Positions 3,088-5,800 of a stretch of DNA of 64,000 nucleotides are shown here, in pieces. The stretch covers positions 255,049 to 319,048 of the forward strand of contig CAWCJA010000010.1 of NCBI GenBank assembly GCA_963795915.1, read 5' to 3'. Position numbers and translations under genes: made by a program. Position 1 is the first letter of the stretch, and each line of letters opens with the position of its first letter. The notes below the pieces were generated by a model. That model was not told the DNA's origin and made no database searches. It saw only the letters and a list, made by a program, of their open reading frames with translations. The DNA is from an uncultured Actinomycetota bacterium. GTDB taxonomy: Bacteria > Actinomycetota > Actinomycetes > Actinomycetales > Dermatophilaceae.

Positions 3088-3271
3088 CGCCGCAGGCGAA
3101 CAGAGTCGTGGCGCCGGAGGCGAACAGAGTCGTGGCGCCGCAGGCGAACAGAGTCCTGGCGCCGCAGGCGAACAGAGTCCTGGCGCCGCAGGCGAACAGA
3201 GTCGTGGCGCCGGAGGCGAACAGAGTCGTGGCGCCGGAGGCGAACAGAGTCGTGGCGCCGGAGGCGAACAG
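3088..3271 (-). repeat. 24-bp tandem repeat, about 7.7 units, each containing a ClgR-type box
   Basis: Unit GCGCCG(C/G)AGGCGAACAGAGTC(G/C)TG; full units start at 3111, 3135, 3159, 3183, 3207, 3231, with partial units at both ends; minus strand of every unit contains GTTCGC-N5-GCG. Confidence 0.95.
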
Positions 3272-3273
3272 GC

Positions 3274-3543
3274 TCACGTCCGGTCCTGGGGGGTCCACGC
3301 CTCGCGACGCCGGAAGAGCGGGAAAGCGTTGAACGTGCCGCCGGGGTCGGCGGTCGTCGTCCAGCGGTCCAGGACCCACCCGGCCTGCTCCACGGCGTCC
3401 ACGCTGTCCATCCACGCGGTCAGCTGCCCGACCCCGGTGCCCCAGGCCCCGAGCTTGAACCGTGCGACGAACGTGGGCCGGCCTTGCTGGTATGCCGCCT
3501 GAGCCTGCGCATACAGCGCCTTGAGGTCGGACTCCGTGCTCAT
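3274..3543 (-). CDS. Small hypothetical protein (89 aa)
   Basis: ATG with GAGGT upstream, balanced non-shadow composition, stop abuts the repeat array. Confidence 0.6.
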   Translation of the reverse strand: MSTESDLKALYAQAQAAYQQGRPTFVARFKLGAWGTGVGQLTAWMDSVDAVEQAGWVLDRWTTTADPGGTFNAFPLFRRREAWTPQDRT

Positions 3544-3561
3544 ACCTCAGGCTAGACGCCC

Positions 3562-3609
3562 CGGAGTGGTGCTCAGCGCGCGCCCTTCCGAGCAGCGAGC
3601 ACCACTCCG
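3562..3609. repeat. REP-like hairpin, left flank of DUF559 gene
   Basis: CGGAGTGGTGCTC...GAGCACCACTCCG 13-bp inverted repeat; homologous to 4669-4714. Confidence 0.7.
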
Positions 3610-3634
3610 CTGGCGTTCACCCCGGAGTCGGGCA

Positions 3635-4564
3635 TCAACCGACGCGGCGGATGGTGAGCGCAGAGTAGGCCCGGCAGACCTGCGCCATGAACGCGTCCGG
3701 CTGGAGCCGCAGCCCGACGAGGTCGATCCGGAGCACCGTTCCCCCGTCGAGGACGACGGCGTTCTGCCGCAGGTTGTCGTCCATCACGGCCAGCCCGGAG
3801 CGGTGGCCAGACCCGTCGATCTCGACGACCAGGCCGACGTCGGACCAGCAGACGTCGAGATAGATGCGACCGGTGGGGGTCGTGCGCACGAGCTGGCGGT
3901 CCGGGACGGGCAACCCGTGGCGCCGGCACAGCGAGGCGAAGTCCAGCTCACCGAGCGACTGCGCACCCGCCGCGACGTCGGCGGCCAGGAGCAGGATCAG
4001 GGCGCGCCGACTCCGCACGGGCACCGCCGAGGCCGCGACGAGCAGCTGACCCGCCGTGACGACACGTTGCTGGACGACGAGGGCGAGGACCAGCGCGGCC
4101 TGCCGGTCGGAGACGGCCCAGGACGCGGCGCGGATGGCGGCGGTGGCCGGCCGGACGCGAGGTATGCCGGCTACGGCCAGCTCCCCGGGACCTCGCTCGA
4201 TCCGGTGGATCCGCACGCCGGACACGCGGCGGGGGTGGACGGCGCGCGGCACCGAGACGTGCTCGACCGCCTCACCGAACCCCGTGACGCCGGCCGCCTG
4301 CAGCGCGCTGACGCCGTCGAGGACGGCGGCGCCGGCCCCCACCTCCCAGATCGACCGCCACCGCCGGGCGACGTCACCCAGGGCCACGGTGTGCACGGCC
4401 ACCGTCTCGTGACCGTGACGCCGCCACCGGCCGGCCGCGACCTCACGGGCCAGCGCGTTGCGGTCCACGCCCAGCTCGCGGAGCAGACGCCGGGAGAGGA
4501 CGCCGCCATAGTCGTCCGCGGCGAGGGCGGCCCGCTCGCGTCGCGCCCGGGCCACAGCGGTCAT
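3635..4564 (-). CDS. AbiEi-like N-terminal / DUF559 (Vsr-like endonuclease fold) protein
   Basis: N-terminal GGVLSRRLLRELG...GRWRR; C-terminal YLDVCW...LVVEIDGSGH...RQN...VLRI, typical of this actinobacterial family. Confidence 0.75.
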   Translation of the reverse strand: MTAVARARRERAALAADDYGGVLSRRLLRELGVDRNALAREVAAGRWRRHGHETVAVHTVALGDVARRWRSIWEVGAGAAVLDGVSALQAAGVTGFGEAVEHVSVPRAVHPRRVSGVRIHRIERGPGELAVAGIPRVRPATAAIRAASWAVSDRQAALVLALVVQQRVVTAGQLLVAASAVPVRSRRALILLLAADVAAGAQSLGELDFASLCRRHGLPVPDRQLVRTTPTGRIYLDVCWSDVGLVVEIDGSGHRSGLAVMDDNLRQNAVVLDGGTVLRIDLVGLRLQPDAFMAQVCRAYSALTIRRVG

Positions 4565-4668
4565 GACGTGACGCTGACACACGCGACGGTCCCGGGCGAG
4601 AGCGGGCTGCGCCTCTGTGGACGACGGGACGACGCGGTCAGGGGATGGGGATCCCGAGCGCAGCGCCG

Positions 4669-4714
4669 GGAGTGGTGTCGGCTGCTCGTCGTCAGGTGCG
4701 CTCGGCACCATTCC
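4669..4714. repeat. REP-like hairpin, right flank of DUF559 gene
   Basis: GGAGTGGTGTCG...CGGCACCATTCC; its reverse complement matches 3563-3608 at 32/46 positions without gaps. Confidence 0.65.
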
Positions 4715-4762
4715 GACCATGACGGCCAGGGCCCGGCGGGCTCGACGACGACGACGGGTCGG

Positions 4763-5800
4763 TCAGCGGCGGCGCTGGCAGCGGCCGCACCAGAAGAGGT
4801 TGCGGCCGGCCACGACCGTGGTGCGCACGCGCGACCCGCACACCCGGCAGGGCTCGCCCTGGCGCCGGTAGACGTAGTAGCGACGCCGCATCCCGGCGTA
4901 CCGCTGCCCCACGACTGCGGTCTCGTCCTCCGGACCGTCCGTGTCCTCGCCCGCCTCGTCGGCGTCGCCCAGCGCCTCGGCCTCCAGGGCCGCCTCCACC
5001 TCGGCGAGCGCCTCGAGGTCGGCCACCGCGACGACACCTGCGGGTCCGGGCGCCGAGCGGCGGGCGGAGTCGGTCCACGTGGACGTCAGGGCCGGTACGC
5101 GCCCCGCCGCCTTCAGCGCCTCGGCCCGCTCGACCTGGTCGGGCATGGTGATGATCTGGTTGAACGCCACCCCGAGCGGCAGCAGCCGGCTGAGGTCGGC
5201 CCAGATCGCGTCCCACGTGGCGCGGCGGATCTCCTTGCCGGGCCGGAACGGGTCGACCCGGTGCCGGTAGAGGACCTCGCAGCGGTAGACGTTGCCGACG
5301 CCGGCGAGGATCGACTGGTCCATGAGCAGCTCGGCGATGCTCCGCCCGGACTTCGCGATCCGGGCCCACGCGCGCGACGGGTCCTGATCGGGGCGCAGCG
5401 GGTCGGGACCGAGCCGGGCCACGATGGCGTCGACCTCAGGAGGGGTGACCACCTGGCAGACCACGGCGCCGCGCAGGTCGGCGACGTAGCGGTCGTTGAG
5501 CAGACGCAGGCGCACAGCGCCCCAGGGAGCCGGCACCGCGGCATACCCGTCGGCATCGACGGCGAGCTGGTCCACCGAGAACTTGCCGATGAGGCCGAGG
5601 TGCACGTTGAGCCAGGTGTCGCCCGCGAACTCCATGAACAGGTGCTTGCCCCAGGCCGACGCCTCGAGCACCTCACGGCCGTCGAGAAGTGCGGCACCGT
5701 CCTCGAACCGCCCCTGAGGCGAGGAGGCGGCGGGGGCCGTGCCGCGGAAGGCGGCGTCGAGCGCCTGCGCCAAACGGTGCAGCGTGTGGCCTTCGGGCAC
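4763..5800 (-). CDS. nei: Fpg/Nei family DNA glycosylase/AP lyase
   Basis: N-terminal MPEGH, WGKHLF, H2TH LMDQSILAGVGNVYRCE, C-terminal zinc finger CRVC...CGRCQ. Confidence 0.92.
   Translation of the reverse strand: MPEGHTLHRLAQALDAAFRGTAPAASSPQGRFEDGAALLDGREVLEASAWGKHLFMEFAGDTWLNVHLGLIGKFSVDQLAVDADGYAAVPAPWGAVRLRLLNDRYVADLRGAVVCQVVTPPEVDAIVARLGPDPLRPDQDPSRAWARIAKSGRSIAELLMDQSILAGVGNVYRCEVLYRHRVDPFRPGKEIRRATWDAIWADLSRLLPLGVAFNQIITMPDQVERAEALKAAGRVPALTSTWTDSARRSAPGPAGVVAVADLEALAEVEAALEAEALGDADEAGEDTDGPEDETAVVGQRYAGMRRRYYVYRRQGEPCRVCGSRVRTTVVAGRNLFWCGRCQRRR

What the first reader, a model, noticed from the sequence alone, without database searches (positions are those of the whole stretch)
3562..4714. 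DUF559/AbiEi-type gene bracketed by two homologous hairpins in inverted orientation
Seen: the 46-nt core of the left hairpin (3563-3608) and the reverse complement of 4669-4714 align without gaps at 32/46. They share the stem GGA(G/A)TGGTG...CACCACTCC and an internal GAGCAGC. Between them is one gene with a Vsr-like endonuclease-fold domain, preceded by a DnaA-box-like TGTGGACGA (about 4616). Inference: this resembles a REP/RAYT-style module or a non-classical mobile unit in which the nuclease acts on its flanking hairpins, with no transposase present.
Basis: partly seen in the sequence, partly recalled or inferred. Interest (0 to 1): 0.62.

Follow-up and report, generated by a model that had tools for sequence, protein, structure and literature searches.

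The report
Nuclease-like gene framed by its own hairpin repeats
A small gene for a DNA-binding, probably DNA-cutting protein sits between two mirror-image copies of a 46-base hairpin that is also scattered behind other genes; each of the seven related genes in this bacterium has its own hairpin family, an arrangement like REP/RAYT but with an unrelated protein and no description found in the papers searched.

Summary
The two hairpins (window 3563-3608 and 4669-4714) are homologous and inverted, and they belong to an 8-copy family in this genome.

A profile built only from the six other copies finds these two as the next-best hits genome-wide. The gene between them (3638-4564, minus strand) has an AbiEi-like winged-helix front and a C-terminal DUF559-type D..ExD..H motif. 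Its Pfam score is below threshold, and the fold search was uninformative.

They are not ordinary terminators:
- **Locus:** the hairpin-gene-hairpin unit is present, absent or flipped between nei and the 89-aa gene in related Lapillicoccus genomes.
- **Recurrence:** 60 of 75 homologous loci across Dermatophilaceae have matched flanking repeats, against about 1% of control genes.
- **Pairing:** in this genome seven paralogues each have their own hairpin family, including all three large families found de novo.
- **Co-variation:** the scattered copies carry the same outer-stem variant as each genome's own cassette.
- **Relative G010:** it has a different gene at this locus, no copies of this family and clean empty sites.
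- **Transposase:** no Y1/RAYT transposase was found.

Best reading is a REP/RAYT-like partnership with a non-HUH protein. That the protein acts on the hairpins is inferred, not shown.

This scan has noted the same pairing before on other DNA. I found no published description.

The parts
4669..4714 (-). Upstream hairpin repeat R (a-type). It lies 48 nt after the nei stop codon and 104 nt before the gene's start. The covariance-model match spans 4663-4720.
4615..4655 (-). Conserved upstream region between hairpin R and the gene. The proximal motif CGTCCACAG is at 4615-4623 on the minus strand. A degenerate distal copy (ATCCCCA) lies about 30 nt upstream. Likely promoter/operator.
   Evidence: The double (C/T)GTCCACAG motif, 30 nt apart, is found in 47 of 79 homologous loci.
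3635..4564 (-). Gene of 309 aa plus stop codon. It has an N-terminal AbiEi-like winged-helix module and a C-terminal DUF559-type domain carrying a D237..E248-x-D250..H254 motif.
   Evidence: The start at 4564 is supported by the coinciding N-termini of 23 homologues.
3563..3608 (+). Downstream hairpin repeat L (a-type), inverted relative to R. It lies 26 nt after the gene's stop codon and 19 nt before the start of the 89-aa gene. The covariance-model match spans 3557-3614.
4763..5800 (-). Flanking gene nei (Fpg/Nei DNA glycosylase). It marks the upstream border of the variable site.
3274..3543 (-). Flanking 89-aa gene of unknown function. It marks the downstream border of the variable site.

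Best explanation
This is a REPtron-like module. A vertically inherited gene, kept by selection, encodes an AbiEi-type winged-helix domain fused to a DUF559-type PD-(D/E)xK-like domain. The gene is bracketed by two inverted copies of its own cognate 46-nt hairpin, and other copies of that hairpin lie just behind unrelated genes.

**Proposed mechanism (inferred).** The protein recognises the outer stem of its own hairpin family through the winged-helix part. It then nicks or cuts there with the C-terminal domain. Repair and copying of these breaks would:
- keep the two flanking copies and the scattered copies alike;
- seed new copies at hairpin-prone sites behind genes;
- now and then flip or relocate the whole cassette.

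The double GTCCACAG motif between the upstream hairpin and the start codon is probably the gene's own operator or promoter.

**Shown here:** the architecture, the cognate pairing, gain and loss of solo copies, inversion and relocation of cassettes, co-variation between cassette and solo copies, and purifying selection on the gene.

**Not shown:** binding, cutting, or any causal role of the protein.
For: **1. One family.** L and R belong to an 8-copy family. A leave-out profile confirms this.

**2. Solo copies.** Six copies lie 10-25 nt after the stop codons of unrelated genes.

**3. The nei locus varies.** The order ku-nei-[X]-p89-clpC is conserved in the genus.
- X is the hairpin-flanked gene in G000, G007, G013 and G039.
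- X is empty (160-170 bp) in G018, G033 and G001.
- X is an oppositely oriented, only 61% identical gene without these hairpins in the close relative G010.

**4. Matched flanks are the rule for this gene family.** About 19 of 24 genus loci have them, and 60 of 75 loci across Dermatophilaceae. Only 12 of 1245 control genes in this genome reach the same score.

**5. One hairpin family per paralogue.** Seven paralogues in this genome each carry their own hairpin family: a 8 copies, b about 15, c 4, d 6, e 17, f 13, and a seventh with only 2 copies and a hairpin seen on one flank only. The three families of three or more members that a de novo census found each contain one pair flanking such a gene.

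**6. Outer-stem variants track the resident cassette.**
- GGAGTGGTG..CACCACTCC occurs in G000 (6), G007 (6) and G032 (1).
- CTGATGGTG..CACCATCAG occurs only in G013 (7-8) and G039 (4-5).
- Neither occurs in G010.

**7. Solo copies come and go as units.** G010 has clean empty sites at three of the G000 solo positions, and other hairpin types at two more. G007 has a copy where G000 has none.

**8. b-type copy number follows the b-type gene.** With the gene: 15 and 17 copies. Without it: 6, 3, 0 and 0.

**9. Hairpins travel with the gene.** Sister proteins at different loci (G039_c and G010_c) share a hairpin type. Cassettes lie in opposite orientations in place at three loci.

**10. Selection.** dN/dS is 0.15-0.34, similar to nei at 0.17.

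**11. No alternative enzyme.** No Y1/RAYT transposase was found in the 96.8%-complete genome.

**12. Protein features.** The N-terminal 200 aa match the AbiEi structures 6y8q and Rv2827c and the PADLOC AbiEi model. D237, E248, D250 and H254 are invariant.
Against: - No biochemical or genetic test of binding or cutting exists.
- The nuclease assignment is weak. Pfam DUF559 is below its cut-off (17.6 vs 20.6 bits) and NCBIfam gives 15.7 bits. Foldseek with the C-terminal model found no Vsr or DUF559 structure.
- Relic b-type hairpins persist in G010 (3 copies) and G032 (6 copies), where no b-type gene was found. Hairpins can therefore outlive the gene or exist without it.
- The up/down orientation is not fixed across the family: inverted is better at 35 loci, direct at 25.
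- 15 of 75 loci lack matched flanks, and so does the G010 gene at this very locus.
- Co-occurrence across genomes is confounded by relatedness, since only a handful of lineages are involved.
- Covariance-model searches scored only 150 candidates per genome, so the counts are lower bounds.
- An earlier check in this scan of the same kind of claim on other DNA priced the causal reading low.
Confidence: 0.45

Rival explanations
1. The cassette moves only itself. The hairpin-gene-hairpin unit is a small selfish element, similar to a homing endonuclease gene. Its protein targets hairpin-like sites behind genes. Solo hairpins are either landing pads or scars left when the gene is lost by recombination between its two near-palindromic flanks. 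On this view the protein does not spread or maintain the solo copies.
For: - Cassette sites in other genomes coincide with solo-hairpin sites in this genome: G008_a at C10c, G010_c at C2:243.1k, G001_a at C5:174.3k, and G011_a at an e-type site.
- One locus (C10:1028.1k) holds a cassette in nine genomes, in both orientations and with different hairpin types.
- Sister genes at different loci keep their hairpin type.
- The solo variant matches the resident cassette, as expected if solos derive from it.
Against: - The hairpin type at a shared site usually differs from that of the cassette found there in another genome. Most solos are therefore not scars of that same insertion.
- Families of 13-17 solos, with arrays and partial copies, imply many more events than the one cassette per family seen in this genome.
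- The cassette genes look long-resident and vertically inherited.
Confidence: 0.25
2. The gene is a passenger. The hairpins are REP- or MITE-like elements spread by host replication or repair, or by an unidentified enzyme. The protein is only an autoregulated AbiEi-like DNA-binding or defence protein. Its gene attracts or retains hairpins, for example as insulators.
For: - The N-terminal module is AbiEi-like, and a conserved operator-like double motif lies upstream.
- The nuclease assignment is weak.
- Relic hairpins occur without the cognate gene.
- Hairpins also flank ordinary genes, for example an aldo-keto reductase on C7.
Against: - It does not explain why seven paralogues each have a different, matching family on their flanks, nor why every large hairpin family has exactly one such gene.
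- It does not explain why the outer-stem variants of solos and cassette flanks change together between lineages.
- Only about 1% of ordinary genes have matched flanks.
- No AbiEii partner gene lies next to it.
Confidence: 0.15
3. The unit is a programmed inversion switch. The inverted hairpins serve as recombination sites that flip the gene, and with it read-through from nei into the 89-aa gene, as a phase-variable switch.
For: - Opposite orientations in place occur at three loci between genomes.
- DUF559 proteins are listed as enriched (odds ratio 14.3) among predicted programmed-inversion targets in PMC9881135.
Against: - The inversions seen here separate species, not cells.
- The inverted G010 gene at this locus is only 61% identical and falls outside the nei-locus clade, so it is a replacement rather than a flip.
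- The model does not explain the scattered solo copies.
- No invertase gene was noted beside the unit.
Confidence: 0.07
4. The hairpins are ordinary transcription terminators: one for nei and one for the DUF559-type gene. Their likeness is chance or convergence.
For: Both lie after stop codons. The left one is very stable.
Against: - Neither has a U-tract, and the terminator scan found none.
- The right hairpin is no more stable than shuffles.
- They are homologous members of an 8-copy family with a conserved asymmetric interior.
- Copies are gained and lost as discrete units, and ordinary terminator hairpins are retained beside the empty sites.
- Empty-site relatives have unrelated hairpins after nei.
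Confidence: 0.03

Closest known systems
REP / REPIN-RAYT systems (REPtrons)
   Same: - A short palindromic repeat family is dispersed in intergenic DNA just behind genes.
- A single-copy, vertically inherited gene under purifying selection is bracketed by two inverted copies of its own repeat.
- There is one cognate gene per repeat family.
- Repeat variants co-vary with the gene between lineages.
   Different: - The protein is not a HUH/Y1 transposase. PF01797 is absent from the genome.
- It is an AbiEi-like winged-helix module fused to a DUF559-type domain.
- Copy numbers are low (4-17 per family).
- Flank orientation is not strictly inverted across the family.
- No activity has been shown.
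AbiEi antitoxins of type IV AbiE toxin-antitoxin systems (S. agalactiae AbiEi, PDB 6y8q; M. tuberculosis Rv2827c, PDB 1zel)
   Same: The N-terminal ~200 residues match these structures (Foldseek E 2.5e-5, TM 0.60 on the target) and the PADLOC AbiEi model (E 7e-7). A likely autoregulatory repeated motif lies upstream of the gene.
   Different: - No AbiEii nucleotidyltransferase partner gene is present.
- An extra C-terminal DUF559-type domain is fused on.
- The gene is embedded in a hairpin-repeat cassette.
DUF559 (PF04480) / Vsr-like PD-(D/E)xK proteins such as E. coli YcjD
   Same: The C-terminal D..ExD..H motif and the alpha-beta-beta-beta-alpha-beta order of secondary structure are present. 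There are weak matches to PF04480, to NCBIfam PRK09767 and to the PvuRts1I nuclease core.
   Different: - All matches are below the curated cut-offs.
- No significant fold match was found.
- The protein is three times longer than stand-alone DUF559 proteins because of the AbiEi-like front.
BoxC / PIT / TM_ECO intrastrand-triplex repeats (PMC4666352)
   Same: Both are orphan, intergenic, GC-rich palindromic repeats with no known enzyme. Earlier notes of this scan link that class to DUF559 genes in other phyla (not checked here).
   Different: The TM_ECO consensus has three arms (CCCTCNCCC-N3-6-GGGNGAGGG-N3-GGGNGAGGG). The hairpins here have two arms only, and no third mirror-repeat arm appears in the flanks shown.
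IS200/IS605-family elements
   Same: Sub-terminal hairpins at both ends enclose a single small gene. Neither has classical terminal inverted repeats of the DDE-transposon type.
   Different: No TnpA (Y1) or TnpB is present. The hairpins here are near-perfect palindromes in inverted orientation, and they also occur as many solo copies.

Membership tests
REP/RAYT (REPtron) | A family of short palindromic repeats dispersed in extragenic DNA | tested here: met
   There are 8 a-type copies, and 6 are solo copies 10-25 nt after stop codons. Other families have 4-17 copies.
REP/RAYT (REPtron) | The gene is flanked by at least two copies of its cognate repeat in inverted orientation | tested here: met
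   L lies on + and R on -, confirmed by a leave-out profile. Identity is 32/46 inverted against 27/46 direct. Across the wider family, orientation is mixed.
REP/RAYT (REPtron) | The encoded protein is a HUH / Y1 tyrosine transposase (PF01797) | tested here: not met
   Pfam gives only weak DUF559 and AbiEi_4 matches. PF01797 has no match anywhere in the genome, while the control genomes do match.
REP/RAYT (REPtron) | One cognate gene per repeat family, co-varying with it | tested here: met
   Seven paralogues pair with seven hairpin families in this genome. The seventh pairing is weak: 2 copies, with a hairpin seen on one flank only. The outer-stem variant partitions between G000/G007 and G013/G039.
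Pfam DUF559 (PF04480) / Vsr-like nuclease | Score at or above the Pfam gathering threshold | tested here: not met
   The score is 17.6 bits against a cut-off of 20.6. Of 23 homologues, 14 match only at E below 0.1.
Pfam DUF559 (PF04480) / Vsr-like nuclease | Conserved acidic/His catalytic-type motif on a PD-(D/E)xK-like core | tested here: inconclusive
   D237, E248, D250 and H254 are invariant. The secondary-structure order fits. Foldseek found no significant nuclease match.
AbiE type IV toxin-antitoxin (AbiEi antitoxin) | AbiEi fold (N-terminal winged helix plus C-terminal domain) | tested here: met
   Foldseek matches 6y8q at E 2.5e-5 and 1zel at E 4.7e-3. PADLOC AbiEi gives E 7e-7. Pfam AbiEi_4 is below threshold for this protein (15.9 vs 25 bits) but above it in four paralogues.
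AbiE type IV toxin-antitoxin (AbiEi antitoxin) | Adjacent AbiEii nucleotidyltransferase toxin gene | tested here: not met
   The neighbours are nei and an 89-aa gene with no Pfam match.
BoxC / TM_ECO intrastrand triplex motif | Three arms: a pyrimidine arm, a purine arm and a repeated purine (reverse-Hoogsteen) arm | tested here: not met
   The consensus comes from PMC4666352. The eight copies with 15-20 nt flanks show two arms only. This was checked by eye, not with a triplex finder.
Intrinsic (Rho-independent) terminator | GC-rich stem followed by a U-run | tested here: not met
   The scan found no terminator-like sites in 3200-5000, and no T-run follows either hairpin.
TIR transposon / MITE | Terminal inverted repeats plus target-site duplication | tested here: inconclusive
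   The inverted hairpin ends are present. No direct repeat was visible at the unit's borders or at solo versus empty sites, and the flanks are too diverged to fix the junctions.

The most novel reading that the evidence does not exclude
Proteins of this AbiEi-winged-helix plus DUF559-type family are the missing enzymes behind orphan REP-like hairpin repeats in Actinobacteria, and possibly more widely. Each paralogue would recognise the outer stem of its own hairpin family and nick it. In that way it would create, homogenise and move the copies. This would be a second, independently evolved RAYT-like partnership built on a PD-(D/E)xK fold.
Probability: 0.4. Interest if true: 0.85.

Novelty: new variant of a known kind. 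Interest (0 to 1): 0.7.

Why it matters
- **A function for two large protein groups.** DUF559 proteins and AbiEi-like fusions are very large families with no known role.
- **A partner for orphan repeats.** REP-like hairpins in high-GC Gram-positive bacteria have no known partner enzyme.
- **A natural specificity panel.** This genome offers seven cognate protein-hairpin pairs, so the idea can be tested directly with purified proteins and oligonucleotides.
- **If true.** It would show that repeat-plus-domesticated-enzyme partnerships arose more than once. It would also explain a common source of assembly breaks and of intergenic variation in these bacteria.

Tried and rejected
- **Rfam:** a scan of the window and of a second hairpin locus found only a tRNA. 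The hairpin is not a described RNA family.
- **Ordinary terminators:** rejected.
- **RAYT / IS200 enzyme:** absent from the genome.
- **Triplex (BoxC/TM_ECO) class:** no third arm is present.
- **AbiE toxin-antitoxin pair:** there is no AbiEii neighbour gene.
- **Aldo-keto reductase on C7:** a b-type hairpin pair flanks this ordinary gene. Flanking by itself is therefore not specific, and the control and the pairing statistics carry the argument.
- **Fold search of the C-terminal domain:** uninformative.
- **Profile search of solved structures:** only a marginal PvuRts1I match.
- **Literature:** 25 papers mention DUF559 and none describes flanking repeats. The only relevant item is a table row on inversion targets.
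- **Target-site duplications:** not identifiable from the diverged flanks.
Full report
**1. The observation.**
The window is high-GC actinobacterial DNA. It is contig C10:255049-319048 of a 4.45-Mb genome, and record titles of close relatives name the genus Lapillicoccus, family Dermatophilaceae.

The left hairpin is GGAGTGGTGCTC...GAGCACCACTCC at 3563-3608. The right hairpin is GGAGTGGTG...CACCATTCC at 4669-4714.
- They match at 32/46 in inverted orientation and 27/46 in direct orientation.
- No other 46-mer in the window, on either strand, comes within four matches of that score.
- Only the left hairpin is unusually stable (z = -5.7 against -0.5). What links the two is common descent, not folding energy.

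**2. The gene.**
The long ORF 3635-4720 includes the right hairpin. However, 23 homologues all begin at the Met encoded at 4564, so the gene is 3638-4564 (309 aa) and hairpin R lies 104 nt upstream of it.
- *N-terminal part.* An AlphaFold model (pLDDT 88) matches the AbiEi antitoxin of S. agalactiae (6y8q, E 2.5e-5) and Rv2827c (1zel) over the first ~200 residues. PADLOC AbiEi models agree (E 7e-7).
- *C-terminal part.* The last ~90 residues carry an invariant D237..E248-x-D250..H254 motif. They give only sub-threshold matches to DUF559 (17.6 vs 20.6 bits; NCBIfam PRK09767) and to the PvuRts1I nuclease core. A separate model of this domain (pLDDT 86) has the strand/helix order of a PD-(D/E)xK core but found no significant structural neighbour. 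'Vsr-like nuclease' is therefore plausible but not established.
- *Neighbours.* No AbiEii partner gene is present. The neighbours are nei (Fpg/Nei glycosylase) and an 89-aa gene of unknown function.

**3. The hairpin is a dispersed family.**
Exact and profile searches find eight copies in the genome, all with the same 9+28+9 geometry and a conserved asymmetric interior (AGCGC...CGAGC).
- A profile built only from the six other copies retrieves L (+ strand, E 9e-6) and R (- strand, E 4.6e-4) as the next-best hits in the whole genome.
- The six solo copies lie 10-25 nt after the stop codons of unrelated genes: an EamA-type transporter, an AAA protein, XdhC, a methyltransferase and a DUF853-type protein.
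- Rfam has no matching family.
- Neither hairpin has a U-run.

**4. The locus in relatives.**
The gene order ku-nei-[X]-p89-clpC is conserved across the genus.
- X is the hairpin-gene-hairpin unit in G000, G007, G013 and G039.
- X is empty, with 160-170 bp holding unrelated hairpins, in G018, G033 and G001.
- X is other DNA in G012 and G036.
- In G010 and G035, X is a gene of the same family on the opposite strand.

G010 is a close relative: nei is 87-89% identical, p89 97%, and the sigma factor 94%. Yet its gene at this site is only 61% identical, lacks these hairpins, and falls outside the clade of the other nei-locus genes.

**5. How general the architecture is.**
In 25 paralogous loci of the genus the layout recurs:
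- a hairpin;
- 10-20 nt of spacer;
- a double (C/T)GTCCACAG motif with the two copies 30 nt apart;
- about 60 nt of spacer;
- a ~310-aa ORF;
- 0-27 nt of spacer;
- a matching hairpin.

The two flanks of one cassette match each other but differ between paralogues. About 19 of 24 testable loci exceed all shuffles.

Among the 80 best of 513 homologous loci in GTDB representatives, 60 of 75 testable loci have matched flanks. These loci come from Pedococcus, Phycicoccus, Terrabacter, Intrasporangium, Ornithinibacter, Nostocoides, Oryzobacter, Kribbia and others. The inverted orientation fits better at 35 loci and the direct orientation at 25.

As a control, only 12 of 1245 ordinary genes in this genome (about 1%) reach the same score. 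The window's own pair scores just 31 on that scale, a value that 3.8% of controls reach. Family membership (section 3), not the raw pairwise score, is the solid evidence here.

**6. Seven paralogues, seven hairpin families.**

| Type | Copies | Gene it flanks |
|---|---|---|
| a | 8 | the window's gene |
| b | about 15 | C5:430306-431220 (58% identical paralogue) |
| c | 4 | C10:986323-987324 |
| d | 6 | C5:560751-561725 (also has the double TCCACA motif) |
| e | 17 | C3:429641-430681 (AbiEi_4-type ORF) |
| f | 13 | C10:22930-24042 (AbiEi_4-type ORF) |

A seventh paralogue, on C2, has a hairpin of a two-copy type after its stop codon only.

A de novo census of perfect-arm hairpins yielded only three families of three or more members: e, f and b. 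Each contains one pair about 1.05-1.1 kb apart that flanks such a gene. No Y1/RAYT transposase is encoded in the 96.8%-complete genome.

**7. The repeats go with the gene.**
- *Stem variants.* The nei-locus cassette has GGA(G/A)TGGTG stems on both flanks in G000 and G007, and CT(A/G)ATGGT stems on both flanks in G013 and G039. The solo copies follow the same split. The first variant occurs in G000 (6), G007 (6) and G032 (1). The second occurs only in G013 (7-8) and G039 (4-5). Neither occurs in G010 (control hits are almost all at 3 mismatches).
- *Orthologous sites.* At the positions of the G000 solo copies, G010 has clean empty sites at three (C10c, C3b, C4a), with the ordinary terminator hairpins beside them retained. 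Other hairpin types occupy the remaining two (C3a, C5a). G007 shares C3a and C10c, and it has one copy that G000 lacks.
- *b-type counts.* There are about 15 and 17 copies in the two genomes that carry the b-type gene. In four genomes without it the counts are 6, 3, 0 and 0. This pattern is supportive but not clean, because relic copies persist without the gene.

**8. Cassettes move and flip.**
- Same-locus genes mostly cluster together in the protein tree, which indicates vertical descent.
- G039_c, at locus C10:1028.1k, is nevertheless sister (100% support) to G010_c at another locus, and the two share a hairpin type.
- Locus C10:1028.1k holds a cassette in nine genomes, in both orientations, while G000 is empty there.
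- The roughly 90% identical G039_b and G013_b genes abut the same end of the same flanking gene in opposite orientation.
- Cassette sites in other genomes often coincide with solo-hairpin sites in G000.

**9. Selection.**
dN/dS of five orthologous cassette pairs is 0.15-0.34. For nei between G000 and G007 it is 0.17. The dS values are similar (0.61 for the cassette gene, 0.44 for nei). The gene is a long-term, functional resident and not a decaying insertion.

**10. Reading.**
The anatomy parallels REP/RAYT point for point except for the enzyme.
- *Preferred reading (0.45).* The protein recognises and nicks its own hairpin family.
- *Main rival (0.25).* The cassette moves only itself, and the solo copies are landing pads or scars.
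- *Lesser rivals.* A passenger gene among autonomous repeats (0.15), a phase-inversion switch (0.07), and plain terminators (0.03).
- *Limit.* Nothing here shows binding or cutting.

**11. Prior notes and limits.**
This scan has recorded the DUF559-plus-flanking-repeat pairing many times on other DNA. A later check accepted the observation but priced the causal claim low. I used those notes only as leads.

Their link to BoxC/triplex motifs is not borne out here, because these hairpins have two arms rather than three. I found no paper describing the pairing.

Limits of this work:
- few independent lineages;
- MAG incompleteness (G007 72%, G032 68%);
- covariance-model searches that scored only 150 candidates per genome;

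Noticed in passing
window 3088-3271: A 24-nt tandem repeat (CGCCGCAGGCGAACAGAGTCGTGG, 7.7 copies, 96% matches) fills the gap between clpC and the 89-aa gene and ends 3 nt before that gene's stop codon.
   Followed up: no
G000 C3:~525200-525290 (outside the window): A 13-nt tandem repeat (GACGCGGAGATGG, 6 copies) lies directly after a solo a-type hairpin. Both the hairpin and the repeat are missing at the orthologous site of G010 and G032.
   Followed up: partly
window 4615-4655, and upstream of 47 of 79 homologous loci: A conserved double motif (C/T)GTCCACAG, with copies 30 nt apart, lies about 95 and 62 nt before the start codon. In some loci it reads TTATCCACA or TTGTCCACA, which from my own knowledge is the DnaA-box consensus. 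Whether DnaA or the protein's own winged helix binds it is open.
   Followed up: partly
G000 C10:1028110-1028170 (outside the window): This is an intergenic hot spot. Nine other genomes of the genus carry a cassette of this gene family here, in both orientations and with at least four hairpin types. This genome has about 60 nt of empty site.
   Followed up: partly
G000 C5:647395-647442 and orthologous sites in relatives: The same intergenic site after one gene holds an a-like hairpin in G000, a compound b-type element in G007, G010 and G032, and a third type in G013 and G039. Hairpin types are exchanged at a fixed site.
   Followed up: partly
G000 C7:50161-51391 (outside the window): Two b-type hairpins 1.14 kb apart flank an ordinary aldo-keto reductase gene rather than a gene of the AbiEi/DUF559 type.
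   Followed up: yes
G007 contigs C455 and C206: Two contigs of the related MAG end inside or right after an a-type hairpin (C206 at the hairpin's last base, C455 about 120 nt after it). These repeats appear to break short-read assemblies.
   Followed up: no
window 3543-3562: Hairpin L ends only 19 nt before the start codon of the 89-aa gene. The cassette has therefore displaced whatever promoter served that gene in empty-site relatives, and the gene may now be read through from the cassette.
   Followed up: no
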